From: Aliinostoc sp. HNIBRCY26
Lineage (GTDB): Bacteria; Cyanobacteriota; Cyanobacteriia; Cyanobacteriales; Nostocaceae
Length of the DNA: 32,000 bases
Direction: 5' to 3'
NCBI RefSeq assembly: GCF_050235535.1
Contig: NZ_CP189852.1
Coordinates: forward strand, 6,324,585-6,356,584
The notes beneath the pieces were generated by a model. It had not been told where the DNA came from. It was given only the letters and a program-made list of their open reading frames with translations, and made no database searches. Positions within the stretch are counted from its first letter, which is position 1. Each line of letters starts with the position of its first letter. Of the stretch, positions 1 to 22,678 are shown piece after piece. A program made the translations under genes and the position numbers.

Positions 1-1630
1 GCTCATCAAGCGGATATTTTTTGTCTTTTAAAATTTCAATTTTTTTCATGAAATCAAAATCTCGTAATTCTTCACCATTGGTTATTTTATCTACTAATAT
101 TAAATTTCCTATATTACCAACTATTGTTTCGTCTCCTTTTGATTGTGGTAGTAAGTGTTCAATACTAGCAGAATTATGATCGATGGGTAGCCCATTAATG
201 TTATTCCCTGTGAGTTTTTCCAGTATATATTGGATGACTTTTTTATCTCTTTGTTTATTTTTGGTATAAATTAAATCCATGAAATTTACTTCAAATTCAT
301 CAAAACTAGGTAGTTTATCTTTGAGTTTCCTTAACAATTCACTATTAATTGACTGAATTTTATCGAAATTGCTAGTCTTAGAAAGCTCTTGAGCATATTT
401 GGCATAAAGTGGTGCAATTGAACCAGAAGACCTTTGAGAAGTAATCGAATTAAAAATAAAATGAAAACATTCAATTTTCCATAGTATCTGACGTAATGCT
501 CTCAATGTTATCTTCTCTTCTCTGTATGCTCGAATTAGAGATAAAATCATTGATGTTTGTTGCTTGACGTTAAAAAGACGTAATGCCTTTAACGATTGAT
601 AAATACTGTTTTTTTCTTCATGACTCCATTGGTGACTATCAGGAGATACTATGGAAATATAATAATTTGAATTTTTTTGAAATTCTAGTAATAATAAACG
701 AGCTTTACTTTCGGATTCGTTTCTAGTATTAGAATCAATAAAATTTTTAATTTCACCAAATAATTGTTTTTGAGTCGTATCACCATATTTAGAAAGCCAA
801 TGGTGATATAAAAAGCTTTCTATAATATTATTATCTAATCCATTATCATCAAATTTTTCTAAGATACCATTCCACACAACTTTATAAGAATCTATTGTAA
901 TATTGGCTGCTCTTAGCTTTTGTAATAATAAATTCTTAACTAAATCTGGTGTAGTTAGATCCTTTCCTCTAGTATTTAGAGTTTCAAATATTAAATAAGC
1001 ATCATCTTCATTGTCTAATTGAATAAATACTAGCTTTAAGGAAAGAACTTTGTTCCTTATTATTTTTAGAATTTCTATAATTTGAGATTTTTGTTCTGTA
1101 GATAAATCATTGCAATAGTTATTTATATCCAATTCAGGAATCATTGACGAAAGGTTCTTATTAATTAGTTCAAATGCAGATTTCAGATTTTGTTCTTCAT
1201 TACCTGGTGTATATTGTATGTCTGCTTTTTGAAAGCTTTGTATATGGTCTTGTAAATAAGGAAATGATGTTTCTGCATCTAGAATATATTCATTTATATT
1301 GTCTATATTCGCTTTTTCTATATATCTATGTACTCCTCTAGCTAAGTTTTCATCTCCAGCCTTAAGGAAAGCATTTCTTATCGCAGCAAGCATTAATGTA
1401 ATAGTTGTTAATCTTTGTTGCCCATCAACTATTCCATAATATGGCTTCTCTATTTGGTAAACAACCATTGAACCAATAAAATAATGTTCATAATCTCTAA
1501 TTACTACATCTTCCCAAAAATTCCTAACCTCCTCATCTGTCCATGAATAGGGACGTTGAAATCTTGGAATTTTAAAATAACCCAGAGAAAATATGTCTTG
1601 AACTTCTTTGTCATTAGCTTCGATTTTCAT
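1..1630 (-). CDS. GmrSD-family type IV restriction-like protein (N-terminal DUF262/ParB-like domain + C-terminal DUF1524 His-Me finger nuclease domain); the 3' end lies beyond the window edge
   Basis: This gene is missing from the ORF track because it is open to the window edge. I translated the minus strand by hand from the ATG at 1630-1628. The product reads MKIEANDKEVQDIFSLGYFKIPRFQRPYSWTDEEVRNFWEDV...YYGIVDGQQRLTTITLMLAAIRNAF, which contains the DUF262 'DGQQR' block. Further on it reads ...DAYLIFETLNTRGKDLTTPDLVKN, the 'FExLNxRGxxL' block. Near position 60-170 it reads NSASIEHLLPQSKGDETIVGNIGNLILVDKITNGE, a DUF1524-type 'EHxxPQ...GNL...N' signature. The frame stayed open across all 543 codons I translated, despite very AT-rich sequence. 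Confidence 0.85.
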   Translation of the reverse strand, partial: MKIEANDKEVQDIFSLGYFKIPRFQRPYSWTDEEVRNFWEDVVIRDYEHYFIGSMVVYQIEKPYYGIVDGQQRLTTITLMLAAIRNAFLKAGDENLARGVHRYIEKANIDNINEYILDAETSFPYLQDHIQSFQKADIQYTPGNEEQNLKSAFELINKNLSSMIPELDINNYCNDLSTEQKSQIIEILKIIRNKVLSLKLVFIQLDNEDDAYLIFETLNTRGKDLTTPDLVKNLLLQKLRAANITIDSYKVVWNGILEKFDDNGLDNNIIESFLYHHWLSKYGDTTQKQLFGEIKNFIDSNTRNESESKARLLLLEFQKNSNYYISIVSPDSHQWSHEEKNSIYQSLKALRLFNVKQQTSMILSLIRAYREEKITLRALRQILWKIECFHFIFNSITSQRSSGSIAPLYAKYAQELSKTSNFDKIQSINSELLRKLKDKLPSFDEFEVNFMDLIYTKNKQRDKKVIQYILEKLTGNNINGLPIDHNSASIEHLLPQSKGDETIVGNIGNLILVDKITNGEELRDFDFMKKIEILKDKKYPLDE

Positions 1631-1850: not shown

Positions 1851-4511
1851 CTAGGCAGGAAGCCAGGTGTGTAACCAACTATCTCGACGCTGGGCAAAGT
1901 CATACAGCAAATCTGGTCTTGTTTCCCGCAAGCATCTGAGGGCTTCGTGTTGGGACATGGCGGTGTTAGCCAGTCCTTGAAGAATTGCCATTTGGCGTTT
2001 CCAGGTGGCTGCATCTTCCACCGGTTCTACAAAGCGTGTGTGTACTTGTTGCCCAACTAACAAAGTGTCATAGGAGTGATCGTCCGAGAAAAACTCTGGT
2101 GGATGCACTGTATAAAATAGGGAATTGCGATAAGACAAAGGTGCGCGTTCTTGAAACAATGCTAGACGTTCTGCTGCACCGGAAATATCTGTGTCTTTAT
2201 TGGCTGCTTGCCAGAAGGGAGTAGAGAGGCGGCGATTAAATTTGTAGTGAATTCCCAAAAACCAGCGTAGCGCATCCCAACGGTCATTAATTTTGCGATT
2301 GAGTGTAGATTTAATCGCTTCATCGCGTCTTGAAGCTGGTAGGTTATTCATGAGAAGTTCTAATTCCAGCACAATCATATGTAGTGCTGTTGATTCTAAG
2401 GGTTCGACAAAACCATAGGAATTACCGATCGCCACTACATTACCACGCCAAAAATGCTCATGTCGTCCAGAGCGAAACTTCACTACCCAAGGTTCACTCA
2501 TCCCCGGATTTTTCGCCCGCATTTCTGCTACCGCCTGTTCTACACTACAGAATGCAGATGAAAACACATAGCCTCGATGGTCGGCATCTTCAAAGGGTAT
2601 ATTCCAACACCAACCATTATTCATGGTTTCCGCTAGGGTGTAAGGTTTGACTGTGCCGTTATGGGGAACAGTGGCAGCGATCGCCTGATCAGTGAAGAGT
2701 GTATCCTGATAACTGACGAATTTTGAGCCAAGTTTCTGCTCTAGTAGGAAGGAGCGAAAGCCAGAGCAATCAATATACAAATCGTAAGTTAGTTTCTGCC
2801 CATCGTCGGTGATTAAATGGGTGATGTTTTCGCCATCAGCAGCAAGTTGAGCATCACAAATCTGCACATCTAAATGCTCAATTCCAGATGCTAAGGCTTC
2901 TTCCTTGAGATAGCCAATGAATCGGCGATTATCTAGGTGATAAGCCCAGCGCACTAGATGTAGTAATGATAAAGGCTTACCATCACCCCGATCAAAAATA
3001 GGGGCGCGATCGCTACTCATTAACATTGCTCCCAATGACTGATTATTCAACGTGGCATCATAGAGGACTGATTCTAGCAAGCGTCCGCGCTGAAAGGGAA
3101 ATGTAAAATCGTAATCACCCGGTAGTCCCCATTGAAACTTAATGCCCAATTTCCAGGTAGGCGCGACTCGCCGATAAAAATCAACGATGTCCAACCCTAA
3201 GAAGCGGGGACTGTGGAGAAACTTCACCAGTTCAGGCGTTGTGGCTTCCCCCACACCAATCACCGGGATGGCACTCGATTCCAGCAATGTCACTTTAATA
3301 TCTGGATGGAAGGTACGAAAAGCCAAAGCTGTTAAATATCCTGCCGTTCCGCCACCTAAAATCCCCACGGTTTGGTAACTATCGGCAGATGGACGAATAT
3401 TAGCTTGCAGGGGATTCGGCCAAATTCTAGCGATTTCCTCAGCAGCAGCTGCGATCGCACTTCTTTCCAACACTCCCAACGGTGCATCTAATTGGGGTGT
3501 ACACTCCTGACATTCACCACTAGGAAATAGCCTTTTGACAATGCGATCGCCCTGACGATTAATTTTGACAACGCTAGTAGCGCGAGTTGGTGTGAAAGTA
3601 GACAAAACTGCGATCGCTTCTTCAATACAAGCTTGGGCTATGGATGGGAAGGGTGTGGGGGTGTAGGGGTGTGGGGGTGTGGGGGAAAGAATAGGGGTTG
3701 ACAGGTGCGGCAAGATATCCTTTAAGACTGAGGGAATAGCTTCCAAGGTGACGACTCGACAACCAAAACAAGCGGTTGCACCTTTAATCACTGTGGGGCC
3801 GATGAGTGCTGTGTCTGGGGAAGCCGTGACAAATAAACACGGTTTCCCAGTGGCTAAGGCTGATTGATTAACATCGAAAAGTGCTTGATATGGCACACCT
3901 TCCAAAGCACACACCACAAAGTCGAATTCTGCCAAAATTTCACAAAGTTGAGCAACAGTCACAGCGTCTAGATGATTGTGGGTTACTGTGAAAGAGCCGT
4001 TAAAAATTATCCGTTCTTGCTGGAAATTGACGAATTCCGGGGTTTTACAGGAAGCGAAATCTGTAATATTCAAAGCACGGCAGTTTTCAAACCCTGCGTC
4101 AGTAAAACTTTGAGTCAGAGTATCCAGTAATTGGTGATTGCCTAAAATAGCGATCGCCTTCTGTTTGATATCATCGGGAACGGTGGGCAATTTCCAGCCT
4201 AGATTTTGGGGTGTGACTCCAGTTGTCAGCGATTCTTCTAATATATGCAGTTGAGTTAAAGCGGCAAGAATTTCCTGTAGGTAGTGGCGATGATATTTAT
4301 TTGCTAGTTCAACATAAATTGATTCTAGGGTTCGCACGCCATCAATTAGCGTGAGTAACTCGCGGATGATATCTGGTTGAATACCTTCGAGGGCGAATAC
4401 ATCATTACCTACCCAACTACACATCTCACCCGCCGGATTGAGGAGTAAATGAGCATTGGGATTAATGCGAGGTACGGAGGGAATAGTATTTACGAACTCA
4501 GCCATTGACAT
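1851..4511 (-). CDS. Fusion protein: N-terminal RiPP leader-binding module (PqqD-like RRE + E1-like 'TOMM precursor leader peptide-binding'/cyclodehydratase-docking domain) fused to a C-terminal flavin-dependent halogenase of the tryptophan halogenase family
   Basis: This is the 886-aa track ORF. Residues ~45-95 (IIRELLTLIDGVRTLESIYVELANKYHRHYLQEILAALTQLHILEE) follow the PqqD/RRE winged-helix pattern. Residues ~110-370 lack a GxGxxG motif and contain FDVNQSALATGKPCLFVTASPDTALIGPTVIKGATACFGC plus a later CQEC; this CxxC...CxxC pairing is typical of E1-like docking domains (TIGR03882-like). From ~aa 383 the sequence reads GILGGGTAGY (FAD GxGxxG), VIGVGEATTP, WKLGIKFQWG (candidate catalytic Lys block), GWCWNIPF (WxWxIP) and GNSYGFVEPLESTA. 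It overlaps the upstream halogenase gene by 22 nt, or 16 nt if Met3 is the start. Confidence 0.8.
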   Translation of the reverse strand: MSMAEFVNTIPSVPRINPNAHLLLNPAGEMCSWVGNDVFALEGIQPDIIRELLTLIDGVRTLESIYVELANKYHRHYLQEILAALTQLHILEESLTTGVTPQNLGWKLPTVPDDIKQKAIAILGNHQLLDTLTQSFTDAGFENCRALNITDFASCKTPEFVNFQQERIIFNGSFTVTHNHLDAVTVAQLCEILAEFDFVVCALEGVPYQALFDVNQSALATGKPCLFVTASPDTALIGPTVIKGATACFGCRVVTLEAIPSVLKDILPHLSTPILSPTPPHPYTPTPFPSIAQACIEEAIAVLSTFTPTRATSVVKINRQGDRIVKRLFPSGECQECTPQLDAPLGVLERSAIAAAAEEIARIWPNPLQANIRPSADSYQTVGILGGGTAGYLTALAFRTFHPDIKVTLLESSAIPVIGVGEATTPELVKFLHSPRFLGLDIVDFYRRVAPTWKLGIKFQWGLPGDYDFTFPFQRGRLLESVLYDATLNNQSLGAMLMSSDRAPIFDRGDGKPLSLLHLVRWAYHLDNRRFIGYLKEEALASGIEHLDVQICDAQLAADGENITHLITDDGQKLTYDLYIDCSGFRSFLLEQKLGSKFVSYQDTLFTDQAIAATVPHNGTVKPYTLAETMNNGWCWNIPFEDADHRGYVFSSAFCSVEQAVAEMRAKNPGMSEPWVVKFRSGRHEHFWRGNVVAIGNSYGFVEPLESTALHMIVLELELLMNNLPASRRDEAIKSTLNRKINDRWDALRWFLGIHYKFNRRLSTPFWQAANKDTDISGAAERLALFQERAPLSYRNSLFYTVHPPEFFSDDHSYDTLLVGQQVHTRFVEPVEDAATWKRQMAILQGLANTAMSQHEALRCLRETRPDLLYDFAQRRDSWLHTWLPA
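3651..3685. repeat. Tandem octamer repeat (coding strand CCCCCACA/CCCCTACA, about 4 units) embedded in frame in the fusion gene
   Basis: The plus strand reads gggtgtgggg gtgtaggggt gtgggggtgt ggggg, with 'tgt' recurring every 8 nt (3654, 3662, 3670, 3678). It encodes the PTPPHPYTPTPFP insert. Near-identical copies lie at 9581-9600 (in the LanB-like gene) and 12559-12588 (intergenic). Confidence 0.8.
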
Positions 4512-5992
4512 TTTCTTTCCTTCACAACCTGAATTGCCTCATGAATTGATAAGGCGTTGTCACAATTTTTGATGAAATAGTTTTTGACTTGTCGCCAATA
4601 ATCTAAATCTAAGGTGTCGTGTTTGTTTTGATACTTTGTTACCACCCGTTGACCCATCAGCAGATTCAGATAACCGTTATATCCAAACACACTATTAGGA
4701 CGAAGGAGAATTTGGCCTATGGGTGATGGGCCATTGTTTTGAAAAAAGTCTACGATCGCGGCTGCTTCGCCAATATCAGTGTATTGTTGGCAGTGTTGCC
4801 AAAACTCCGATTCTACATAGTGATTGAACTTAAAATGAATCGATAAAAAGTCACGAATATCATCCCATTTTTGAGCGATCGCCCGATTTGCCAAATTAAT
4901 TAACGCTGGGGTGGGTCGTTGGTCTGAATCAATTAACACATCGCATACACATTTAATGGTTTCGCCAATCATGTGTAATCCCGTTGATTCTAAGGGTTCT
5001 ACAAAACCTGACGCATTGCCAACTGCGACCACATTCTTCACCCAAAATCGTTGATGTCGTCCTGATTTAAACCTAATCTGACTAACATCGTCACTCATCA
5101 GGGGATTTTTCTGTTTCATCTCTTGCAGTGCTGCATCATCACTGATAAAAGCAGATGAATAGACATAGCCCCGATTGACACGATCCTGTAAATCAATTTG
5201 CCAACACCATCCCGCCTGCATAGTTTCGGCGGTGGTGAAGGGATAAATTGGATCATCTCGCATCCATGTGCCTGTGACAGCAGAATCACAGAATAAGCTA
5301 GTAGCAAAACTGCAAAAAGGTTCTTGGAGAATTTCTCCAAGCAACGTAGAACGAAACCCAGAACAATCAATAAACAAATCACCAGTTACACTTTTCCCAT
5401 TTTGCAAGCGTAGTTGGTGAATATCGCCATTTTCAGCCACTGTAATATCTACAACAGGCTGATCAATAATCTGAATGCCAAGTTCTAAAGCGCGCTTTTC
5501 TAGATATGCCACAAAACTAGAATTTTCGATATGGTAGCCAAAGCGTTCGTCAATAACAAACTCTCCATCTTTGCGACGGAAGCAAGGCGATTTATACTGC
5601 TCCATCAACAGAGAGTAAATACTAGAGTCTGTAGTAGAGTCTAGACAATAATAAGCCGTGCTTTTTTGCAAAACAGCCAGTTTATCCGCCAAATGAGTCA
5701 CAAAAGGATAGTTGAAGTGAGACTGGCTAGGATCTCCCCAAATAAACTTAATTCCCAGTTTCCAAACAGGTTGGGTTTCCTCGTAAAATTGCTCACGATT
5801 GAATCCCAAATACTGATGGAGAAACCAAGGTATCCAGGCGGTAGTTGCTTCACCAACTCCAATAATGGGAATAGTAGTAGAATGAACTACCACCACATTT
5901 AAAAATGGCATTTTGACCTTGAGAGCTAAGGCAGAGAGAAACCCTGCACTACCTCCGCCGAAGATTACAACATTATGTATTATCTTTTCCAC
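4490..5992 (-). CDS. Flavin-dependent halogenase, tryptophan halogenase family (stand-alone)
   Basis: This is the 500-aa track ORF, and it uses a GTG start (plus-strand 'cac' at 5990-5992). Motifs seen are VIFGGGSAGF (GxGxxG), IIGVGEATT, WKLGIKFIWG, GWCWQIDL (a WxWxID variant of WxWxIP) and GNASGFVEPLESTG. It is a paralog of the C-terminal half of the downstream fusion protein. Confidence 0.85.
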   Translation of the reverse strand: MEKIIHNVVIFGGGSAGFLSALALKVKMPFLNVVVVHSTTIPIIGVGEATTAWIPWFLHQYLGFNREQFYEETQPVWKLGIKFIWGDPSQSHFNYPFVTHLADKLAVLQKSTAYYCLDSTTDSSIYSLLMEQYKSPCFRRKDGEFVIDERFGYHIENSSFVAYLEKRALELGIQIIDQPVVDITVAENGDIHQLRLQNGKSVTGDLFIDCSGFRSTLLGEILQEPFCSFATSLFCDSAVTGTWMRDDPIYPFTTAETMQAGWCWQIDLQDRVNRGYVYSSAFISDDAALQEMKQKNPLMSDDVSQIRFKSGRHQRFWVKNVVAVGNASGFVEPLESTGLHMIGETIKCVCDVLIDSDQRPTPALINLANRAIAQKWDDIRDFLSIHFKFNHYVESEFWQHCQQYTDIGEAAAIVDFFQNNGPSPIGQILLRPNSVFGYNGYLNLLMGQRVVTKYQNKHDTLDLDYWRQVKNYFIKNCDNALSIHEAIQVVKERKCQWLSS

Positions 5993-6355
5993 ACGAATAT
6001 CTCAAAAATATCGACTTATTTATCAAAAAATATTAAGAAAAGTAGACGATTTTGGATGTCTATTTTCTTTATGTCATATGACATTTGGGAACAGAGCAAA
6101 ACTAATTAATATAGCACAAATAAATATTTTGGCTATAAGTTAATTTCACTTAACAGGACGTTGCGCTGCGTTTAAACACAACTTAAGAACTTAAAATTCA
6201 TTTACAAACGCTATGTAATTAAATTTAGTAATTGTTTGTCACCAATCTTATCAATAGATTCTAGAATTTCTTCTTAAATTACTTAAAGATTTGTACTGTT
6301 CATGAGACAAATCAGATAGGATTTGCTGACAGTATTAGATACGGAAATAACTATA
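5993..6355. promoter_or_regulatory. Divergent promoter/control region between the halogenase operon (minus) and the MBL-LanB-MBL operon (plus)
   Basis: This is a ~360-bp AT-rich, stop-rich spacer between two divergently oriented gene sets. It contains a perfect 14-bp palindrome, ATGTCATATGACAT, at 6071-6084. I could not assign -10/-35 elements with confidence. Confidence 0.4.
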
Positions 6356-8113
6356 ATGCGTGTCACTATCTGTGGCCATGCTGCTTTATATATCGAAACT
6401 ATTGATCAACGCATCTTGCTTGATCCATGCTTTGCTGATGAACTTGTGGGCGGGACACTCACCTACTATCCAGGTCGGGTATTTAACTTAGATAAACTGC
6501 CCGACCTGACGGCTATAGTGGTGACACACGGACACTTTGATCACTTTCATCGTCCAACACTAGAACAATTGCCCCGTGAACTACCTGTGATTACAGCCGA
6601 TGAGCCGGAACTGTTAGCACAGTTACAGCAAATGGGATTTGCCGATGTGAGAGTCTGTCAACCTTGGCAAGCGATCGCCCTCGGACAAACTCACTTACTC
6701 CCCACGCCTTCCGACCATGAAGAACCAGAATTTGGGTTAGTGGTGCGGGATGTGACAGGGACATTTTGGCACATGGCAGACGCAGAAGTTACGGTAGAAA
6801 TTGGCGATCGCCTCACCCAAGCCTATGGTGCAATTGATCTGATTTCCACTAAGTATCAGCCAGTAGTCCGGGCTAGCATGGGCTATCAGCATGGCATGGG
6901 GGCAACGTTTGACCGAGAAGGGGTAGTGAGTTGGTTAGAAGCAGCTTGTGCCTGTAACCCGGCTTTAATCTTCCCCTACGCTTCCGGGCTGTGTTTTAAT
7001 GGTCGCCATGCCTGGTTTAATCGTTATGCCTTCCCCTTAAGTGCAGAAGAAACAGTGCGCTTGTTGCAACGTCGCCTCGGCTCTCCAGAACGAGCCACAA
7101 CAGTGCGTCCTGGCGATGTGATTGAACTTCAGGCTGGTCAGCATCCCCAGCGACATGAACAAGCAGCCGGTTTCGTCAAAGCCAAGCCTTCTCAGGTATT
7201 GCGCTGGCAACCTGTCGATATCAGCACCCTCACGGGACTATCAACACCAGAAGCACGGCGGACTCTACAACGACAACTAGAGGCGTTATTACTGACAGGA
7301 AAATTTGTCTCATGGCTGCAAAGCATAGTCAAACATACTGATACCATTTGGGCTAAGTTTCCCTCTGAGCAGGTTGTTTGGCAATTGGTAGTTCATGCTG
7401 GGGATGGCGAACTGTTAAACTATGCCATTGATTTTCGCTCTCAAGATTTGGCTGTGGTGTCCGGTGAACATCCAGAAGCCAACTTCTTTACCCACATTGC
7501 CGGACAAGCTTTGGCAGAAGTGATGACGGGCGAAAAACCAGGGCTAATTTTTTGGCTAGCTGGGGAGGTGCGGAGTTATGAAAAGGTGATTTGTCTCCGC
7601 AATGGTCGTTTTGCCGCTCCACAGTGGCCGGATATACCTGAAGATTTCCCCTCCGACCCCCTAACTTACTACCTCCGTCATTTTGGGGCGGGAAACATCC
7701 CTACTGAGCAGCTAGAGACAGCAGCGAATTCTCTTGGAAGTCCCGATGATATTCAGATTTTGACGCGTCTGGGGGAAAACGCAGGAGTCATCAGCAAAAA
7801 AGTTCTCTTGGCTTATTTGGCGGTGAAAGAAGCAGAACGTTTAGGGCTGAATATTTCTGATGCGGAAATTCAAGCCATGTCTGACTCGTTTCGAGAGCAG
7901 TTTAATTTGCAAGATAGCCAAGCTACAGAACAATGGTTAAAGGAAGCAGGATTAAGTCTAGAAGCATACTCGGCCGTGATGCGAGATTTCACTGCCGTCC
8001 TGAAGTTAGAACAGCATTACACTAGCGTTATTGAGCCGTGGCTGGCCAATCATCGCCGTGTGGCTACAGCTCGTTATGCGCGATCGCATCCAGACTCCAC
8101 AGACAATGAATAA
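6356..8113 (+). CDS. MBL-fold metallo-hydrolase (Lactamase_B_2/3-like) with a ~330-aa C-terminal extension of unknown function
   Basis: The track ORF 6323-8113 begins at a TTG. I prefer the ATG at 6356 (MRVTICGHAALYIETIDQRILLDPCF...), which is a typical MBL N-terminus. The HxHxDH-type motif is VVTHGHFDHFH. The C-terminal tail (...VLLAYLAVKEAERLGLNISDAEIQAMSDSFREQFNLQDSQATEQWLKEAGLSLEAYSAVMRDF...) resembles SurA-N/PpiD-like chaperone helices, but this is a weak impression by eye. The stop overlaps the next gene's start within ATGAATAA (8106-8113). Confidence 0.8.
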   Translation: MRVTICGHAALYIETIDQRILLDPCFADELVGGTLTYYPGRVFNLDKLPDLTAIVVTHGHFDHFHRPTLEQLPRELPVITADEPELLAQLQQMGFADVRVCQPWQAIALGQTHLLPTPSDHEEPEFGLVVRDVTGTFWHMADAEVTVEIGDRLTQAYGAIDLISTKYQPVVRASMGYQHGMGATFDREGVVSWLEAACACNPALIFPYASGLCFNGRHAWFNRYAFPLSAEETVRLLQRRLGSPERATTVRPGDVIELQAGQHPQRHEQAAGFVKAKPSQVLRWQPVDISTLTGLSTPEARRTLQRQLEALLLTGKFVSWLQSIVKHTDTIWAKFPSEQVVWQLVVHAGDGELLNYAIDFRSQDLAVVSGEHPEANFFTHIAGQALAEVMTGEKPGLIFWLAGEVRSYEKVICLRNGRFAAPQWPDIPEDFPSDPLTYYLRHFGAGNIPTEQLETAANSLGSPDDIQILTRLGENAGVISKKVLLAYLAVKEAERLGLNISDAEIQAMSDSFREQFNLQDSQATEQWLKEAGLSLEAYSAVMRDFTAVLKLEQHYTSVIEPWLANHRRVATARYARSHPDSTDNE

Positions 8114-10454
8114 TCGGCAAAGATTTGAGTTTGCCCCGGCTGCTATCTTACGGGCTGCGGCTTGGCCTATCGAAACTATTCAAGGTTTCGGAAATCCAGA
8201 ACTCGCCCAATTGGCACTCGCAGCCAGCCGCAGTCAGGATGCTCACACCTGGAAAGAATACACAGATGCCTATCAACAGGTACACGCACAAGAGCGTGAA
8301 AGACTGTGGCAGATTACCGCAGGCGATTCCTGGTTTATGAAAGCATTGCTGTTGTCCAATCCATCCCTCGTCACCGAGGTAAAACGTGGGCTAACACTCC
8401 AAGAAGGGAAACGCACCAAAAAAATTCGCCATCTAGAAACAGCACTGTACCGTTTTCTCGCACGGGCGGCGGGACGCACCACACCCTATGGTTTATGGGC
8501 TGGTGTGGGTTTAGTCGAGTTGGGCAAGACAGCACAGCAAGCATCAACAAACGCCAAGTATACATTTACACCTGATTTGCGTCCTTGGCAAAGGATATTG
8601 CGAGCGATCGCCCACCGTACAGAATACCGTCAAGCAGCAACTTGGCGAATCAATCCTACCTTAAAGCGGCAAGCAGACGGCTCTTGGCGTTTTTGGGGGA
8701 GAAAGCCTGGTGGGTTAGTCGAACAGCGTGAAATTGATTCCCAAGAAATCGTAGATGTTCTTTTGGAGGAACTAATAAAATTAGAACTGGGAACATTAGA
8801 TCAACTGTCCACAACAGTAGCAGTTTCACCCCGATGGCACTATGCAGCTAACATACAAGAGATTCTGCGTATTTTCATTGATGGGGGTGTGCTTGTAGGC
8901 GGACTAGACCTACCCTATCAATTTGCAAATCCCTGGCAAGCCTTAGTTCTAGTAGCAGACAACCTGATTGAGCCAGATCTCCATCTTTGGCACAAAGCTA
9001 TTCACCAGATCCAGCAACTGAGCGATACTCTAGCGGCGCAGCTTGAGGTCATGTCTGTAGATGCACTAGGAGAGTATTTACAACAAGCCAAGACATATAT
9101 TCAGGAACTCGCCCAGGGTCTTAGCGTTGAACTCATCCAGCTACCCGATCCAGTGCTGCACTGTGATTTGGAGCTACCATTGCGGATTACCCTTGATCAG
9201 ACACAGCAAAATATTTTACTGCAAACACTCCGAGACTATGAAGACTGCTGGATTCAAGGCATTAGTCCAGCCTCAGCCTTGCGGATAGCATTCCGTGAGC
9301 GAATGCAACAAGAATTTGCAATGGGTGTAGCTCTTTGTGATCTAAAATCCAGCTTAACTGCCGAAATGACCAAAGCTCATAGTCATCCCGCAGTTGTCAC
9401 CCGCATAGCAGAGTGGGAACGCTGTTTATCTCACGGCACAGAGGAATTTATTCTAGAAACTAATAACAATGGGTTAAATTCCCCTCTTTCTACAGCCCCT
9501 TTTGGTTGCTTGTTTGTCGGTTTATTTGCAGGAGGCAACCCCGATGCAACTTTTACTACCAAAGATAAAATCAACTGTTTCCCCCACACCCCTAAACCCT
9601 TAGAATTTTTAGTTCATGGCATTGGTGATGAACCCGTGCGAATCTTTGCCCGGTTTAGCGAATTACTCAAGTGTGATCATGTACTGCATTCTTGGTTTCA
9701 AACCAGACTGGAGGATTTGGCAACCCAACATCACATTCAGGTGGCAGAACTACAAACTCCCTTTGAGCATAACCCTAATGTCTTGGCTCGTCCTAATTTC
9801 GGGATTGTGCCGATTGAGTTGTGGGGCGCAAGTGCAGAGACTGCATCCCTAGCTGGTGCCAAAATTTTTCTTGATGCTAAAACACAGCTATCTTTCTTAA
9901 AACTGTCTGCCTTTACCAATCCAGTAGCAGTATTTTGGTTTTCCTCAGCTGCGATCGCCAATTTTGATCCTATATGTGAACAGTTACTTTGGACTACCTT
10001 TCAGGATAACCCGATGGCAGTTTTTCGTGCTGCTACACAGCCCATGCCAGTCGAACTCAGCACACCCCGCTTCACCCCCCGTGTACGACTACCAAAAAAC
10101 GCTATTGTACGTCCCCGTCGTACTGTTTTGAGTGGGCAAACCTTAACGGAACTTGCCCAAATGCCTGCAATAGAGCGTTTTGCTAAGTGGCAACAATTAG
10201 CGGCTGAATATGGCTGGCCGATGCTGCTAAATCTGCAAATTGCGGGACAATATTCACTGTTGATACATCGGGATAGCCCCCTAGCCATAGAGTCCTTTTT
10301 CAAAAAAAACTTGTCAGCACAAACTCCCTGGCTAATTATCGAAGAGTTAGTCAATCAACCTTGGCTAGTTGACTCCCAAGGACAACATTACATAGCAGAA
10401 CTAGCCATACCGTTTGCCCGCAGTGAACACGGCTGGGGGAAATTAAAAATCTAA
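8106..10454 (+). CDS. Lantibiotic dehydratase N-terminal (LanB glutamylation-domain) family protein lacking an elimination domain; candidate PEARL (peptide aminoacyl-tRNA ligase) or split LanB
   Basis: The track ORF is 8031-10454. I place the start at ATG 8106 (Met26, MNNRQRFEFAPAAILRAAAWP...), which gives 782 aa. The hallmark Lant_dehydr_N block is present: KKIRHLETALYRFLARAAGRTTPYGLWAGVGLVELG. The length and the C-terminal region (RFTPRVRLPKNAIVRPRRTVL...LLNLQIAGQYSLLIHRDSPLAIESF) fit the roughly 800-aa N-terminal domain alone. I recognise no SpaB_C/elimination-like sequence in this ORF or elsewhere in the window. Confidence 0.8.
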   Translation: MNNRQRFEFAPAAILRAAAWPIETIQGFGNPELAQLALAASRSQDAHTWKEYTDAYQQVHAQERERLWQITAGDSWFMKALLLSNPSLVTEVKRGLTLQEGKRTKKIRHLETALYRFLARAAGRTTPYGLWAGVGLVELGKTAQQASTNAKYTFTPDLRPWQRILRAIAHRTEYRQAATWRINPTLKRQADGSWRFWGRKPGGLVEQREIDSQEIVDVLLEELIKLELGTLDQLSTTVAVSPRWHYAANIQEILRIFIDGGVLVGGLDLPYQFANPWQALVLVADNLIEPDLHLWHKAIHQIQQLSDTLAAQLEVMSVDALGEYLQQAKTYIQELAQGLSVELIQLPDPVLHCDLELPLRITLDQTQQNILLQTLRDYEDCWIQGISPASALRIAFRERMQQEFAMGVALCDLKSSLTAEMTKAHSHPAVVTRIAEWERCLSHGTEEFILETNNNGLNSPLSTAPFGCLFVGLFAGGNPDATFTTKDKINCFPHTPKPLEFLVHGIGDEPVRIFARFSELLKCDHVLHSWFQTRLEDLATQHHIQVAELQTPFEHNPNVLARPNFGIVPIELWGASAETASLAGAKIFLDAKTQLSFLKLSAFTNPVAVFWFSSAAIANFDPICEQLLWTTFQDNPMAVFRAATQPMPVELSTPRFTPRVRLPKNAIVRPRRTVLSGQTLTELAQMPAIERFAKWQQLAAEYGWPMLLNLQIAGQYSLLIHRDSPLAIESFFKKNLSAQTPWLIIEELVNQPWLVDSQGQHYIAELAIPFARSEHGWGKLKI

Positions 10455-10460
10455 CTTAAA

Positions 10461-10498
10461 AGTGATGAGTGCTGAGTGCTGAGTGGGGAGTGATGAGT
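10461..10498. repeat. STRR-like tandem heptamer array (AGTGNTG x5)
   Basis: The units are agtgatg agtgctg agtgctg agtgggg agtgatg agt. The array sits directly after the LanB-like stop codon (10452-10454). Confidence 0.8.
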
Positions 10499-10522
10499 CA
10501 ATTAGTGTTTGCTTCCTATGCT

Positions 10523-10553
10523 CCCCCATCCCCAATCCCCAATCCCCAATCCC
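10523..10553. repeat. STRR1-type tandem heptamer array (CCCCAAT, about 4 units)
   Basis: The units are cccccat ccccaat ccccaat ccccaat ccc. CCCCAAT heptamers are the classic short tandemly repeated repetitive (STRR) sequence of heterocystous cyanobacteria. Confidence 0.85.
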
Positions 10554-10570
10554 TCTTCCCTCTTTCATCT

Positions 10571-12064
10571 ATGACAATTCGCAGATTAAGTAACAAAATT
10601 AGATTCCAACTGATTTATCAGGATGAAACCAAATTTGGCAGTGCTGTCACTGGACAATGCGACACGACTATCCGGCGTTACTGCAAAAGCATCATGGCAC
10701 ACCGTCAACAATATGGTCTGGCAGATGTGGTGGCGCATTCACGGGAATTACTGGCAGCAACCATGATTCCTGGTGGACTGGCAGATTTGTATGCAAGTCC
10801 TGGGGTACTGCGAGAAGATTGGCTTTATCCCGATAGTCAAGCTGTTCAACCCGTTGTATTGCAATTGGAACACAATATTGGTGAAAGTATCGCCACCCTT
10901 AAACTATCGCCCCATCTCTTATCTGATTTAGCTTCATATTTAGGTGAATGGCAACAAGGAAGTCATGCTCCGACTACAACCGTGGCTCGTGAGTTATGGG
11001 ATGTGTTAAATGATTATGGCGCACTGGTTCAAGAGGCTATGCCTGCAACGTCTCTATCAAGTCATGCTACCTTTGTCGGTCACTCAACTCTACAATTTAG
11101 TGATGGCAACTCTAGTATTTTGTTTGATCCATTTGTGTTGCCCAAGTCTGAGGTTTATCCACCCAACTATCAACCCCTCAGCCTAGAGGAACTAGGACAA
11201 CCTGATGCCGTATTTATCACCCATTCTCATCCTGATCATTTTGATTTAGGCACATTGCTGAGACTTGGTGCTAACACAGCAATCTTTGTGCCTGAAGTGC
11301 AGCGAGAATCTGTATTGGCAATTGACATGGCATTGCGGCTGCGTCAGTTGGGGTTTGATAATGTTCACACCCTGAGCTGGTTTGAAGAAAGGCAAATTGG
11401 CGGGATCAGAGTTATTGCCTTGCCATTTTACGGTGAACAGGCTACCGTCGGGGAAGTCCTGCACCCAGAGATTCGTAATCAGGGTAACACCTATCTGGTT
11501 GAGTATTGCGATCGCCGTGTGGCACTAACCGCCGATTCTGGGCGTGACTATCTGGGAAATGTCAAAGAACTAGCAGATACAGCCAAAGAGCGTTATGGTT
11601 CGCTTGATATTCTCTTCGGTGGCTATCGTGGTTTTGGACTCTATCCAATTCAGTATCTATTTTCCTCAGTTGCCCGGTATTTGACTTTTGTACCTGAAAA
11701 GATTTGGCAAGTCCGGCAAAAAATGATGTGCGATGCCGATGATGTCATTGATGTCGCTGAAATCTGGAATGCTAAACGGCTTGTACCGTACTCCGATGGG
11801 GGTGCGCCTTGGTTTTGGCAACGTGGTCTTGGCCCTTGTCTAGATGGATCACAACCACACATTATGGCAGTTGATCCTACCCCAGACCATGTTTGTCAGG
11901 TAGCCAGTCAGCGTTCAGGGACTCGCAAAGATGGAGCGATCGCATCTCCCGTATCAATTTGTCTGCTGCGCCCTGGGGATGCTCTCATGTTTTCACAAGC
12001 AGATATTTCAGTTAAAAATCAGTCTTGGCCTTATGTAAATTCTTCAGGCTCTAAAACTAGGTAA
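10571..12064 (+). CDS. MBL-fold metallo-hydrolase (second copy) with a ~170-aa N-terminal extension of unknown function
   Basis: The track ORF is 10469-12064. Its first 34 codons are encoded by the two STRR arrays, so I prefer ATG 10571 (MTIRRLSNKIRFQ...), giving 497 aa. The MBL core reads ATFVGHSTLQFSDGNSSILFDPF...PDAVFITHSHPDHFD...VALTADSG. The N-terminal region (...TVARELWDVLNDYGALVQE) has no assignable family by eye. Confidence 0.75.
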   Translation: MTIRRLSNKIRFQLIYQDETKFGSAVTGQCDTTIRRYCKSIMAHRQQYGLADVVAHSRELLAATMIPGGLADLYASPGVLREDWLYPDSQAVQPVVLQLEHNIGESIATLKLSPHLLSDLASYLGEWQQGSHAPTTTVARELWDVLNDYGALVQEAMPATSLSSHATFVGHSTLQFSDGNSSILFDPFVLPKSEVYPPNYQPLSLEELGQPDAVFITHSHPDHFDLGTLLRLGANTAIFVPEVQRESVLAIDMALRLRQLGFDNVHTLSWFEERQIGGIRVIALPFYGEQATVGEVLHPEIRNQGNTYLVEYCDRRVALTADSGRDYLGNVKELADTAKERYGSLDILFGGYRGFGLYPIQYLFSSVARYLTFVPEKIWQVRQKMMCDADDVIDVAEIWNAKRLVPYSDGGAPWFWQRGLGPCLDGSQPHIMAVDPTPDHVCQVASQRSGTRKDGAIASPVSICLLRPGDALMFSQADISVKNQSWPYVNSSGSKTR

Positions 12065-12367: not shown

Positions 12368-12649
12368 ATATTTTCTTGCTATTAATAAACACAACACTCT
12401 TTTGCAGAGTTGCAATTTCTTGCCCCCTACATAAGCGCATATTTTGTGTAGTTGAAAATCTCTATATATTTAAATTCACCCGATAAGAAAGGTTTTACGC
12501 AAACAATAACTACCCTCTATACTTTCGGCAATAAAATATGGGCATGGGAGCAAAATTTCTCCTACACCCCCACACCCTTACACCATTTCACGAAAAATAT
12601 GATACAGATGTAAATCCTGAAAACCTTGCTGCATCTGAGTTTTTTAATT

Positions 12650-18986: not shown

Positions 18987-18996
18987 GAGATTACAT

Positions 18997-19045
18997 CAAT
19001 TCGCAATTCGCAATTCGCAATTCGCAATTTGCAATTTGCAATTCG
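18997..19045. repeat. STRR-type tandem heptamer array (CAATTCG/CAATTTG x7)
   Basis: The units are caattcg x4, caatttg x2, caattcg x1. The array begins 11 nt upstream of the cyclase start codon (18986), in the DUF928-cyclase spacer. The same heptamer recurs at 31308-31371. Confidence 0.85.
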
Positions 19046-19174
19046 CATTTTTCGCATTGTAACGAGGATTTAGACCCCTACATTTTGTTAATTCAAAATT
19101 CAAAAAAGAGCATTTAACGCGTACTCTCACATTCATATCTGTGGTTTTATTGTACAATCTGGGCATTTTCTAAA

Positions 19175-19909
19175 TTATTGATTGAGCAAAGGTTGAGAAA
19201 CTAAGTTTTTTAAGCCGACTGACTCTAAAAAGGCTTGCCAATTTGCTGTGACTTGGCGATCGCTAGGATGCGCTAGACGTTGTTGTACTAAGGTATGCAA
19301 TGCTTCATGCCAAATGCCAGCATTGGCGTACACTTGGGATAGTTGCTGGGGATTTGTCCTGGCTAGCTGCTGGGATAAAGCTGGGGTGGCTGGGATACGT
19401 TCTACCCAACCATCTACGGTAATTTCTTTTTCTTCTTCAGGATTGCAGGCGATCGCAAAATACCAGTGATACTTTTTACCAACTTTCAGGCTAGATGCGC
19501 TAGATGGCAGAGTAAAACCCATAATTCCCGTTTCTTTAGGAAGTTTAACAGTTGTTTCGTAGACTACACCTTGATCATCTAGTAATGAAAAGTGTGCCGT
19601 TTGTACGCTAACCTGCGGCACAAACCAGTAAAAACTAGGACGTTCAGCCAAAGTTAAACCGAATTTATTTTGCGGTATTAAGGGCTGTATAGTTTCTTTA
19701 CTTGCTAACTCACAGAAATCTCCACGGCTTCCCCCACCAGCAGTTGTGCGGGGTGCTTGGCGATTTGGAGGGATAAATTTCTGGCTGATTTGCCCGTTTT
19801 GCCATCTTCGTGGTGATTCAGCTATGCCTTTGGGCAAACTAGAAATGCTTAATAATCCTAGAGAGAGGGAAACTGCTGTCAGATTTATAAATTTTCTTAT
19901 CAAATTCAT
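19175..19909 (-). CDS. DUF928 domain-containing secreted protein
   Basis: This is the 244-aa track ORF. It has a signal-peptide-like N-terminus (MNLIRKFINLTAVSLSLGLLSISSL). Family-typical blocks follow: FIPPNRQAPRTTAGGGSRG..C, RPSFYWFVP, LKVGKKYHWYFAIAC and YANAGIWHEAL. Confidence 0.8.
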   Translation of the reverse strand: MNLIRKFINLTAVSLSLGLLSISSLPKGIAESPRRWQNGQISQKFIPPNRQAPRTTAGGGSRGDFCELASKETIQPLIPQNKFGLTLAERPSFYWFVPQVSVQTAHFSLLDDQGVVYETTVKLPKETGIMGFTLPSSASSLKVGKKYHWYFAIACNPEEEKEITVDGWVERIPATPALSQQLARTNPQQLSQVYANAGIWHEALHTLVQQRLAHPSDRQVTANWQAFLESVGLKNLVSQPLLNQ

Positions 19910-20121
19910 ATTAAGTTAGGTTAATTTTCCAGCCTCTAAAAACAACAACTATATTTGCTAATGCCAAAGGTGATATTAATTTAAATTAATTACCTATATT
20001 AAAACTAATACTACCTGATTGTCCAAAAATAAATTTTAACTTAACTATTATGCCAACTTTACAAGCTGACATTTGATTGCAATAGATAACTTAATTTCAC
20101 TCATCATCAATTTTAGACAAT
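19910..20121. promoter_or_regulatory. Divergent promoter region between the DUF928-cyclase-ABC genes (minus) and the CNB-HlyD-ABC genes (plus)
   Basis: This is a 212-bp, very AT-rich, stop-rich spacer between divergent gene sets. It contains an AT-only 14-bp palindrome, ttaatttaaattaa, near 19976-19989. I found no recognisable CRP-type TGTGA-N6-TCACA site or NtcA GTA-N8-TAC site. Confidence 0.35.
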
Positions 20122-21162: not shown

Positions 21163-21204
21163 ACAACAAAAGGTCAACTATACCCAATTCCAAGCTCCAA
21201 ATAA

Positions 21205-22644: not shown

Positions 22645-22678
22645 ACAAATCTAGCGATTCTGTTCCCTCCCTTGAGCA

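What the first reader, a model, noticed from the sequence alone, without database searches (positions are those of the whole stretch)
1851..4511. Leader-peptide recognition module (RRE + E1-like docking domain) fused directly to a flavin-dependent halogenase
This is seen directly in the 886-aa translation. A PqqD-like winged-helix stretch (LTLIDGVRTLESIYVELANKY...LTQLHILEE) comes first. An E1-like domain follows; it has no nucleotide-binding GxGxxG but retains the CxxC...CxxC pair (CFGC, CQEC) and the GKPCLFV...LIGPTVIKGATACFGC block typical of TOMM leader-binding proteins. A complete halogenase then follows (GGGTAGY, GVGEATT, WKLGIKF, WCWNIP, GFVEPLEST).

The inference is that the halogenase is targeted to a leader-bearing peptide substrate by a covalently attached recognition domain. 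That would be a way to build a substrate-directed peptide halogenase, which is of interest for biocatalysis. The E1-like domain appears to have been recruited away from its usual YcaO partner.
Basis: partly seen in the sequence, partly recalled or inferred. Interest (0 to 1): 0.78.

Follow-up and report, generated by a model that had tools for sequence, protein, structure and literature searches.

The report
Peptide halogenase with built-in leader-binding module
One 886-residue cyanobacterial gene joins a leader-peptide-binding module, of the kind normally attached to YcaO heterocyclases, to a MibH-like tryptophan halogenase; the fusion is real, conserved, apparently undescribed, and probably steers halogenation onto a ribosomal peptide.

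Summary
Window 1851-4511 (minus strand) is one uninterrupted 886-aa ORF. Residues 381-886 are a complete flavin-dependent Trp halogenase, closest to the lanthipeptide halogenase MibH. An AlphaFold2 model of residues 1-380 (pLDDT 87.6) shows a PqqD-type RRE followed by an E1/ThiF-like domain. Its best PDB matches are LynD, TruD, MccB and PaaA.

The E1-like part keeps both CxxC pairs but has lost the ATP motifs, so it is probably a non-catalytic docking domain. The fusion is not an artefact. Seven Nostoc assemblies carry the same intact ORF under purifying selection, and about 30 distant protein clusters share the architecture. The one split copy (a Trichormus MAG) differs by 2 nt in an octamer repeat.

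The nearest non-halogenase relatives carry a YcaO domain where the halogenase sits, which implies a domain swap. Orthologous loci encode a Nif11-type precursor ending in ...MCCW. This recalls SrpE (LCCCW), the substrate of the RRE-less brominase SrpI. That precursor is not in this window; a GmrSD restriction gene lies where the rest of the cluster should be.

Leader binding and halogenation are inferred, not shown. I found no description in the searchable literature: a new variant of known kinds.

The parts
1851..4511 (-). Complete 886-aa ORF (fusHal): RRE, E1-like domain, linker and flavin-dependent halogenase
   Evidence: ORF listing. Single full-length tblastn HSPs in 7 Nostoc loci. One stop codon only in all 8 copies.
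4227..4484 (-). RRE (PqqD-like winged helix), residues ~10-95: four short strands (14-41), three helices (46-87) and a strand (91-93)
   Evidence: AF2 secondary structure with pLDDT 84-95. Profile hit to PaaA residues 9-89 at E 3.3e-4, and a weaker TruD 12-86 segment. Foldseek alignments to LynD, MccB and PaaA include this region.
4167..4226 (-). Low-confidence connector between the RRE and the E1-like domain (residues ~96-115)
   Evidence: pLDDT 55-67, with residues 96-105 below 50 in the full-length model.
3432..4166 (-). E1/ThiF-like Rossmann-type domain, residues ~116-360, predicted non-catalytic
   Evidence: Foldseek hits to LynD, TruD, MccB, MoeB and UBA5. Profile hits to TruD, MccB and LynD at E 1e-9 to 1e-10. 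TIGR03882 hits residues 224-339 below its cut-off. The G-loop reads ILGNHQL, and MccB R157 (in NLTRQ) aligns to Glu159.
3759..3770 (-). First CxxC (C248, C251), in the GP...CFGC block
   Evidence: G238, P239, C248 and C251 are invariant in the 26-sequence alignment A2. The block aligns to the MccB/TruD 'GPLxVPGxTGCxxC' sequence.
3501..3512 (-). Second CxxC (C334, C337)
   Evidence: Nearly invariant (>=90%) in A2 and A4. Aligns to the terminal CxxC of MccB and TruD.
3642..3689 (-). (CCCCCACA)x4 octamer tract encoding PTPPHPYTPTP, a lineage-specific insertion in a loop of the E1-like domain
   Evidence: The tract is 2 nt shorter in Trichormus L001, which splits that gene. L003 and L004 lack it. 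pLDDT is 64-78 in this stretch.
3372..3431 (-). Flexible inter-domain linker, residues ~361-380
   Evidence: Residues 361-373 have pLDDT below 50. Full-length pTM is 0.63 against 0.88 for the N-terminal half alone.
1851..3371 (-). MibH-like flavin-dependent tryptophan halogenase domain, residues 381-886. FAD GxGxxG is at 386-392 (nt 3336-3356), Lys454 at nt 3150-3152, WxWxIP at 634-639 (nt 2595-2612) and Glu703 at nt 2403-2405.
   Evidence: Pfam PF04820 at E 1e-111. MibH 5UAO at E 2.8e-145 by sequence, and at TM 0.92-0.93, rmsd 2.1-2.5 A and 46% identity by structure. K454, W634, W636, P639 and E703 are invariant in the fused family.
4490..5992 (-). Second, stand-alone halogenase (Hal2, 500 aa), immediately upstream. 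Its end overlaps the fusHal start by 22 nt.
   Evidence: Pfam PF04820 at E 3e-111. Best PDB match is MibH at E 1e-95. The Hal2-fusHal pair is adjacent in all 7 Nostoc loci.
6323..12064 (+). Divergent, syntenic operon: an MBL-fold protein with a TIGR04500-like tail (6323-8113), a lanthipeptide-dehydratase N-terminal (glutamylation) protein (8031-10454) and a second MBL-fold protein (10469-12064)
   Evidence: At least part of this block is syntenic in L001, L002 and L004-L008; MBL2 was not detected in L006.
14108..24952 (.). NHLP/Nif11-type export set: TIGR03797 ABC (14108-16747, -), TIGR03794 HlyD (21205-22644, +) and TIGR03796 C39-peptidase ABC (22679-24952, +). A CHASE2 cyclase, a DUF928 protein and a cNMP-binding protein are interleaved.
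   Evidence: NCBIfam scores are above the curated cut-offs. Pfam hits.
1..1630 (-). Low-GC GmrSD type IV restriction endonuclease gene, running off the window edge. It is not part of the system and marks where the cluster is interrupted.
   Evidence: GC 0.28-0.33. GmrSD_N at 4e-39 and GmrSD_C at 3e-9. In the 95%-identical ortholog L002, a TfuA gene lies directly downstream of fusHal instead.

Best explanation
fusHal is a three-part RiPP tailoring enzyme. A PqqD-type RRE and a degenerate, Zn-site-bearing E1-like domain together resemble the N-terminal half of LynD/TruD heterocyclases. They are tethered by a flexible linker of about 15-20 residues to a MibH-like FADH2-dependent tryptophan halogenase.

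Proposed mechanism (inferred):
1. The RRE binds the leader of a Nif11-type precursor, most likely the LxxxxL segment just before the GG cleavage site. This would be by beta-strand addition, as in LynD-PatE.
2. The core peptide, about 14 residues, is thereby held near the tethered halogenase.
3. The halogenase uses FADH2, O2 and halide to make a Lys454-associated hypohalite species and halogenates an indole, probably the C-terminal Trp of a ...MCCW core.
4. The E1-like domain serves as a structural or dimerisation scaffold, not as an adenylating enzyme.

The co-translated stand-alone Hal2 probably adds a second halogen or acts at another indole position, possibly using the same docking module in trans.

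Shown here: the domain architecture, its conservation, the catalytic motifs, the loss of the ATP motifs, and the domain-swap relation to E1-YcaO fusions. Inferred: leader binding, substrate identity, regiochemistry and halide.
For: Architecture.

Fusion real and selected: 8 intact ORFs with dN/dS 0.06-0.33 in all three segments. 33 of 78 scanned sequences, which include the window protein, carry the halogenase; about 23 of these are full-length at 829-900 aa.

Catalytic halogenase residues are invariant across the fused family.

Non-catalytic E1: the G-loop is GNHQLL, MccB Arg157 aligns to Glu159, and there is no conserved ribose-binding Asp.

Domain swap: the closest non-halogenase relatives are N-terminal module + YcaO fusions, with YcaO at about residues 390-790.

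Substrate: L003, L004, L005 and L007 encode a conserved 120-121-aa Nif11-like precursor...ELSEDELESVAGG|LASSTPRETIMCCW. A Nif11/NHLP exporter with a C39 peptidase lies in the window.

Precedent: SrpI brominates the C-terminal Trp of the SrpE core LCCCW in a leader (LxxxxL)-dependent way without an RRE, and the same motif binds the LynD RRE as a beta-strand (PMC10858898).

Flexible tether: residues 361-373 have pLDDT below 50, and full-length pTM is 0.63.
Against: No precursor peptide is encoded in the 32-kb window. The link to ...MCCW therefore rests on orthologous loci, and L006 and L008 also show none within the flanks fetched.

MibH, the closest characterised halogenase, is leader-independent and acts on the cyclised core (PMC10858898). 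Leader dependence therefore cannot be read from the halogenase domain itself.

Pfam PqqD does not hit the window protein itself, only 2 of the 78 scanned sequences. TIGR03882 is below its cut-off.

The AF2 alignments were shallow (24-26 sequences). No complex with a peptide could be modelled. No flavin reductase is evident nearby.
Confidence: 0.66

Rival explanations
1. Pathway hub. The RRE/E1-like module is mainly a shared leader-binding scaffold for several enzymes of the cluster (Hal2, the split LanB, the MBL-fold proteins, JmjC/cupin hydroxylases and YcaO-TfuA). Its fusion to one halogenase would be incidental. This would be analogous to the E1-like C/F proteins or TclI, which present a peptide to several enzymes.
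For: A stand-alone 341-aa homologue of the module (P0005, E 7e-23) sits in an operon with MBL, TauD, YcaO, TfuA and Cupin_8 genes, and no halogenase is in view on that 7.9-kb contig. Hal2 lacks any docking domain and overlaps fusHal by 22 nt. Cupin/JmjC and MBL genes recur beside fused halogenases. A YcaO-TfuA pair is close by in the Nostoc orthologs.
Against: The fusion with the halogenase is kept in about 30 divergent clusters and across phyla, which argues for a cis benefit. LanB-type dehydratases usually carry their own leader-binding region (background knowledge). This reading extends the main one rather than excluding it.
Confidence: 0.2
2. Active E1. The E1-like domain is a working adenylating enzyme, like MccB, PaaA, IndF or GrcB. 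It would activate the C-terminal carboxylate of the ...CCW precursor for a second modification, making the protein bifunctional.
For: The precursor ends in a free Trp carboxylate, and RRE-ThiF enzymes act on C-termini (PMC12596934). Many family members keep a GNGxL[A/G] loop resembling GxGxxG/A. The nearly invariant Glu204 aligns with the Mg-binding Asp214 of MccB. The Zn site is retained.
Against: In the Nostoc clade the loop is GNHQLL. MccB Arg157 aligns to Glu159. The stretch after beta-2 is not conserved and is deleted in about a third of the family. Pfam ThiF does not hit this protein. The top structural matches are the non-adenylating LynD and TruD domains.
Confidence: 0.08
3. Artefact or decaying gene. 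The long ORF would be a chance or assembly-generated read-through of two genes, or the N-terminal part would be a degenerating remnant without function.
For: In the Trichormus MAG the gene is called as two ORFs of 306 and 595 aa. The word-index protein search found almost no homologues of the N-terminal part.
Against: The Trichormus split is a 2-nt difference inside an octamer repeat. It lies in the middle of the E1-like domain, between the two CxxC pairs, not at a domain border. Eight intact copies show dN/dS of about 0.14-0.33 in the N-terminal part. An exhaustive HMMER search found 77 homologues. The fold is predicted with confidence.
Confidence: 0.02

Closest known systems
MibH (NAI-107/microbisporicin lanthipeptide Trp-5-chlorinase, PDB 5UAO)
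   Same: Closest solved halogenase to residues 377-880: E 2.8e-145 by sequence, and TM 0.92-0.93, rmsd about 2.1-2.5 A and 46% identity by structure. It acts on a peptide substrate in a RiPP cluster that contains a LanB-type dehydratase.
   Different: MibH is a stand-alone enzyme (541-residue deposited chain) with no RRE or E1-like domain. It is leader-independent and accepts only the cyclised core.
SrpI (proteusin brominase of sponge-symbiont srp clusters)
   Same: A leader-dependent RiPP halogenase that modifies the C-terminal Trp of a Cys-rich core (SrpE LCCCW against the Nostoc ...MCCW). Both precursors have large NHLP/Nif11-type leaders with an LxxxxL motif before GG.
   Different: SrpI has no embedded RRE, and none is encoded in its cluster; it binds LxxxxL directly (PMC10858898). 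Here a dedicated RRE/E1-like module is covalently attached.
LynD / TruD / PatD-type fused cyanobactin heterocyclases (PDB 4V1T, 4BS9)
   Same: Best structural and profile matches of residues 1-380. They share the order RRE, then non-adenylating E1-like domain with a Zn site, then a C-terminal catalytic domain. The nearest non-halogenase sequence relatives have this architecture.
   Different: Their catalytic domain is a YcaO cyclodehydratase; here it is a flavin-dependent halogenase. TIGR03882 is hit only below its cut-off.
MccB / PaaA (RRE + ThiF-like adenylating enzymes)
   Same: Two-domain RRE + E1 fold with two CxxC pairs. Foldseek E 5e-10 to 8.5e-9, and profile E 4e-10 for MccB and 3e-4 for the PaaA RRE.
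   Different: These enzymes are catalytically active and bind ATP through GxGxxG and NLxRQ. Those motifs are lost here. They also carry no further catalytic domain.
ChlH (chlorolassin lasso-peptide halogenase)
   Same: A MibH-like (58% identity to MibH) RiPP Trp halogenase that acts on the linear precursor.
   Different: Stand-alone and promiscuous. No docking domain is described for it.

Membership tests
Flavin-dependent tryptophan halogenase (Pfam PF04820) | Profile match above the gathering threshold over the whole domain | tested here: met
   374.5 bits against a cut-off of 21, residues 382-834 on profile positions 2-455 of 458.
Flavin-dependent tryptophan halogenase (Pfam PF04820) | FAD-binding GxGxxG and the WxWxIP motif | tested here: met
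   GGGTAGY at 386-392 and WCWNIP at 634-639. G386, G388, G391, W634, W636 and P639 are invariant in 24 fused proteins.
Flavin-dependent tryptophan halogenase (Pfam PF04820) | Catalytic Lys (PrnA K79) and Glu (PrnA E346) | tested here: met
   K454 in PTWKLGIKF and E703 in EPLEST are invariant and identical in the MibH alignment. The equivalence to PrnA numbering is by motif, from memory of the PrnA sequence.
Flavin-dependent tryptophan halogenase (Pfam PF04820) | FADH2-, O2- and halide-dependent halogenation of an indole | not testable with these tools
   Needs an enzyme assay.
RiPP recognition element (PqqD-like RRE) | Winged-helix topology: a three-stranded antiparallel sheet followed by three helices | tested here: met
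   AF2 gives strands at 20-24, 30-34 and 37-41 (plus 14-16) and helices at 46-55, 62-69 and 75-87, with pLDDT 88-95.
RiPP recognition element (PqqD-like RRE) | Similarity to characterised RREs | tested here: met
   Foldseek alignments to LynD, TruD, MccB and PaaA span 350-388 columns, including the N-terminus. The profile hits PaaA residues 9-89 at E 3.3e-4.
RiPP recognition element (PqqD-like RRE) | Match to the Pfam PqqD (PF05402) model | tested here: not met
   No PqqD hit for the window protein. Only 2 of the 78 scanned sequences hit, with a best E of 3.3e-4.
RiPP recognition element (PqqD-like RRE) | Binds the leader region of the precursor peptide | not testable with these tools
   No peptide-protein modelling or binding assay was available, and the precursor is absent from the window.
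E1/ThiF-like superfamily | Rossmann-like E1 fold with two CxxC pairs | tested here: met
   Foldseek hits to MoeB 1jw9 (TMt 0.60), UBA5 and MccB. C248 and C251 are invariant, and C334 and C337 are conserved at 90% or more.
E1/ThiF-like superfamily | Nucleotide-binding GxGxxG loop and the phosphate-binding Arg of NLxRQ (adenylation competence) | tested here: not met
   The window reads ILGNHQL. MccB LGCGGIG aligns to the family consensus lGnGrLa. MccB R157 aligns to Glu159. Only the acidic residue is kept, with Glu204 aligned to MccB Asp214.
TOMM leader-binding / cyclodehydratase docking protein (TIGR03882 cyclo_dehyd_2) | Score above the curated cut-off | tested here: not met
   18.5 bits against a cut-off of 36.9, E 0.0019, residues 224-339.
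TOMM leader-binding / cyclodehydratase docking protein (TIGR03882 cyclo_dehyd_2) | Fused to, or partnered with, an azoline-forming YcaO | tested here: not met
   No YcaO is present in the 32-kb window. None was seen near 9 distant fused halogenases, though several of those contigs are short. The Nostoc orthologs have a TfuA-associated YcaO whose best equivalog-level NCBIfam hit is the thioamidation type.

The most novel reading that the evidence does not exclude
The RRE/E1-like module defines an uncharacterised RiPP class. In this class it would be the common leader-binding hub, either stand-alone (as in the P0005 locus) or fused to a halogenase. It would serve a conserved enzyme set: two MBL-fold proteins, a LanB-type glutamylase with or without an elimination protein, JmjC/cupin hydroxylases and YcaO-TfuA. 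The product would be a dehydrated, hydroxylated and thioamidated peptide with a mono- or di-halogenated C-terminal tryptophan. The non-catalytic E1 domain would then be a portable docking platform that evolution has re-plugged from YcaO onto unrelated catalysts.
Probability: 0.3. Interest if true: 0.75.

Novelty: new variant of a known kind. Interest (0 to 1): 0.62.

Why it matters
The three characterised RiPP tryptophan halogenases each have a limitation. MibH is leader-independent and very narrow in substrate. SrpI depends on the leader but has no recognisable docking domain. ChlH is promiscuous.

An enzyme family with a separable, covalently attached leader-recognition module would offer a natural blueprint for leader-guided, site-directed peptide and protein halogenation. 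Aryl halides are also handles for cross-coupling chemistry.

The finding also shows that the non-catalytic E1-like docking domain is not tied to YcaO chemistry. The ThiF-like review read here (PMC12596934) describes that domain as co-opted for peptide binding in YcaO/azoline (LAP) pathways and does not mention halogenases. The N-terminal module could serve as a genome-mining handle for a set of clusters that databases label only as 'tryptophan 7-halogenase'.

Tried and rejected
1. The word-index protein search, run with the N-terminal 379 aa and again with a 26-sequence profile, returned only the Trichormus fragment. The exhaustive HMMER search was needed.
The single protein worked.
4. A precursor search inside the window found nothing. 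It combined a scan of all small intergenic ORFs with tblastn of the Nostoc precursor at E<=10.
5. The 93-aa ORF at 12134-12415, which ends in Trp, was considered as a precursor and rejected. It has a signal-peptide-like N-terminus and the N-terminal motif of DUF928 proteins, and its C-terminal Trp is not conserved in Trichormus.
6. The LanB_N-only protein was considered as a PEARL (aminoacyl-tRNA-dependent peptide ligase). This is less likely because orthologous loci encode a separate Lant_dehydr_C / TIGR03891 protein, which makes it a split LanB. It is not excluded.
7. Small ORFs near the distant fused halogenases in L011 and L012 gave no recognisable precursor.
8. Seven literature searches and an eighth found no description of an RRE- or E1-like-halogenase fusion. 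Subscription-only papers are not covered.


Full report
OBSERVATION

Window 1851-4511 holds one ATG-initiated 886-aa ORF on the minus strand. Pfam Trp_halogenase covers residues 382-834 at E 1e-111. The N-terminal 380 residues have no Pfam hit. Their only curated hit is TIGR03882, the 'TOMM precursor leader peptide-binding protein' model, at 18.5 bits over residues 224-339, below its cut-off of 36.9. Single-sequence comparison with PDB sequences gave only weak hits, to MccB (E 0.035) and PaaA (E 1.2).

IS THE FUSION REAL?

A scan of one genome per species found seven Nostoc assemblies with 67-93% identity over the N-terminal 380 aa. In all seven the whole 886-aa protein aligns as one tblastn segment. 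Each copy is a single ORF of 2640-2667 nt with only the terminal stop.

Pairwise dN/dS against the window copy is 0.22-0.33 for the RRE, 0.14-0.29 for the E1-like part and 0.06-0.09 for the halogenase. All three parts are therefore under purifying selection, and the docking half evolves faster.

The only split copy is in a Trichormus MAG, where it is called as ORFs of 306 and 595 aa. The DNA alignment shows that it differs by 2 nt inside a (CCCCCACA)n octamer tract (window 3642-3689). The break falls between the two CxxC pairs, inside the E1-like domain and not at a domain border. This is a frameshift or an assembly slip, not an ancestral two-gene state.

An exhaustive HMMER search of 1.84 billion cluster representatives with residues 1-380 found 77 homologues. 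Of the 78 sequences then scanned, which include the window protein, 33 carry Trp_halogenase, 20 ThiF, 14 YcaO and 2 PqqD. About 23 of the homologues are full-length fusions of 829-900 aa with the same domain order. Where their sources give a name, it is only 'tryptophan (7-)halogenase'; one is from a gammaproteobacterial MAG.

WHAT IS THE N-TERMINAL HALF?

An AlphaFold2 model built on 26 family sequences has mean pLDDT 87.6 and pTM 0.88. Residues 14-93 form short strands followed by three helices, which is the PqqD/RRE winged-helix layout. Residues ~116-360 form an alpha/beta Rossmann-like domain.

Foldseek against the PDB ranks the hits as follows:
- LynD (4v1t/u/v) at E 4e-12
- TruD (4bs9) at 4.5e-11
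- MccB at 5e-10
- MoeB and PaaA, both at 8.5e-9
- UBA5

The LynD, TruD, MccB and PaaA alignments span 350-388 columns, so both sub-domains are matched. The modest TM-scores (~0.38) and large rmsd reflect differing orientation of the two sub-domains.

A sequence profile of the family hits TruD (1.8e-10), MccB (4e-10), LynD (3e-9), the PaaA RRE (residues 9-89, 3.3e-4) and MusD (5e-4).

G238, P239, C248 and C251 are invariant in the family. E204, C334 and C337 are nearly so. The E1 zinc site is therefore kept.

The adenylation machinery is not kept. The G-loop is ILGNHQL (family consensus LGNGxL). MccB Arg157, in its NLTRQ motif, aligns with Glu159. The segment after beta-2 is variable or deleted in about a third of members. 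Only an acidic residue remains, with Glu204 aligned to MccB Asp214. This matches the non-adenylating docking domains of LynD and TruD better than it matches MccB or PaaA.

THE HALOGENASE HALF AND THE TETHER

Residues 377-880 match MibH (5UAO) at E 2.8e-145. In the full-length model they superpose on MibH with TM 0.92-0.93, rmsd 2.1-2.5 A and 46% identity. The GxGxxG motif, Lys454, the WxWxIP motif and Glu703 are invariant across the fused family.

No listed PDB match aligns more than ~550 of the 886 residues, so no solved structure among the top hits has this architecture. In the full-length model residues 361-373 have pLDDT below 50, and pTM falls to 0.63. The two halves are joined by a flexible linker and their mutual orientation is not defined.

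CONTEXT

The gene's start overlaps by 22 nt the end of a second, stand-alone MibH-like halogenase (4490-5992). A divergent operon encodes three proteins:
- an MBL-fold protein with a TIGR04500-like tail
- a lanthipeptide-dehydratase N-terminal protein with no elimination domain
- a second MBL-fold protein

At least part of this block is syntenic in L001, L002 and L004-L008. Further along lie the three NHLP/Nif11-type export proteins (TIGR03797, TIGR03794 and the C39-peptidase ABC TIGR03796), all above their curated cut-offs.

Downstream of fusHal the window holds a low-GC (28-33%) GmrSD restriction endonuclease gene that runs off the window edge. In the 95%-identical ortholog (Nostoc sp. CMAA1605, L002) a TfuA gene lies directly downstream instead.

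In L004, the locus examined in detail, the downstream stretch encodes a JmjC protein, TfuA, a stand-alone YcaO, a precursor, a Lant_dehydr_C/TIGR03891 protein and a cupin. The precursor is conserved in L003, L004, L005 and L007. It is a 120-121-aa Nif11-like peptide...NRELSEDELESVAGG followed by LASSTPRETIMCCW. The YcaO's best equivalog-level NCBIfam hit is the thioamidation type.

No such peptide is encoded in the window. The cluster here is most likely interrupted by the GmrSD insertion, with the remainder lying beyond the left edge. That is inference.

MECHANISM

The precursor has the LxxxxL motif (LSEDEL) directly before the GG site and ends in Cys-Cys-Trp. In the srp system the brominase SrpI halogenates the C-terminal Trp of the SrpE core LCCCW. 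It depends on the leader's LxxxxL motif yet has no RRE. The same motif binds the LynD RRE as an added beta-strand (PMC10858898).

I therefore propose that the RRE of fusHal binds that leader segment, and that the tethered halogenase modifies the C-terminal (or another core) Trp. Hal2 would add a second halogen or act at another position. This is inference (confidence ~0.66).

Two points support independence from YcaO. First, none of nine distant fused-halogenase contigs shows a YcaO in view. Their neighbours are instead cupin/JmjC, LanC-like, LanB plus two MBL, and carbamoyltransferase genes; five of these contigs are only 3.6-6.2 kb. Second, the nearest non-halogenase relatives of the module are fusions in which a YcaO domain occupies residues ~390-790, exactly the halogenase's place. 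That is a domain swap.

A stand-alone homologue of the module lies in an MBL/TauD/YcaO/TfuA/cupin operon. This raises the rival, or extension, that the module is a hub for several enzymes of the pathway.

COMPARISON AND NOVELTY

Each part is of a known kind: MibH-like FDH, RRE, and non-catalytic E1-like docking domain. The combination is what is new.

The protein is a full member of PF04820. It works like, but is not a scored member of, TIGR03882. It fails the adenylation criteria of active ThiF-like enzymes.

Characterised RiPP halogenases are described as stand-alone and lacking an RRE. A 2025 review of ThiF-like enzymes does not contain the word halogenase. Eight full-text searches found no description of this fusion, though subscription-only papers are not covered.

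Verdict: a real, conserved, apparently uncharacterised variant. Interest is 0.62. RRE fusions to many enzyme types are common, so the surprise is moderate. The family is nevertheless directly testable and is useful for leader-guided peptide halogenation.

Noticed in passing
window 3642-3689 (-); L001 9956-9984; L002 10827-10861: A (CCCCCACA)x4 octamer tract lies inside the coding sequence and encodes PTPPHPYTPTP in a loop of the E1-like domain. A copy 2 nt shorter in the Trichormus MAG frameshifts the gene. The tract is absent from more distant Nostoc orthologs. Similar CCCCACACC words occur at window 3249, 9582 (in the LanB_N gene) and 12568. This could be a slippage-prone tract, and real on/off variation is not excluded.
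   Followed up: partly
window 1-1630 (-): A low-GC (0.28-0.33) GmrSD-family type IV restriction endonuclease gene runs off the window edge. It lies where the closest ortholog locus (L002) has TfuA, so it looks like a defence-gene insertion into the biosynthetic cluster.
   Followed up: partly
L004 12903-20091; also L003, L005, L007 (precursor) and L002 12676-14328 (TfuA only): Orthologous Nostoc loci extend the cluster. L004 carries a JmjC hydroxylase, TfuA, a stand-alone YcaO, a Nif11-like precursor ending in ...MCCW, a Lant_dehydr_C protein and a cupin. I did not find this enzyme combination described.
   Followed up: partly
window 12134-12415 (-): A conserved 93-aa ORF has a signal-peptide-like start and the motif PNRGAPQTTAGGGIRG, which resembles the N-terminus of the DUF928 protein at 19175-19909. 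It ends in Trp here but not in Trichormus. Its function is unknown.
   Followed up: partly
window 14108-24952: The NHLP/Nif11 export genes (TIGR03797, 03794, 03796) are interleaved with a CHASE2-adenylate/guanylate cyclase, a DUF928 protein and a protein with two cNMP-binding domains. This hints at cyclic-nucleotide control of peptide export. The block keeps its internal order in L008 but lies on the other side of the halogenase genes there.
   Followed up: no
window 8031-10454 (+) and 6323-8113 (+): The LanB_N-type ORF, taken from its first possible start, overlaps the end of the MBL/TIGR04500 gene by 83 nt. Orthologs align only from residue ~19-30, so the true start is probably further downstream. 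The protein has no elimination domain. In orthologous loci a separate Lant_dehydr_C protein exists, so it is a split LanB, though a PEARL-like role is not excluded.
   Followed up: partly
window 25278-27848 (-): An 856-aa protein has a PhoX-like domain, short tandem '[20 protein letters not shown]' repeats and a C-terminal DUF4114 domain. It appears unrelated to the halogenase cluster.
   Followed up: no
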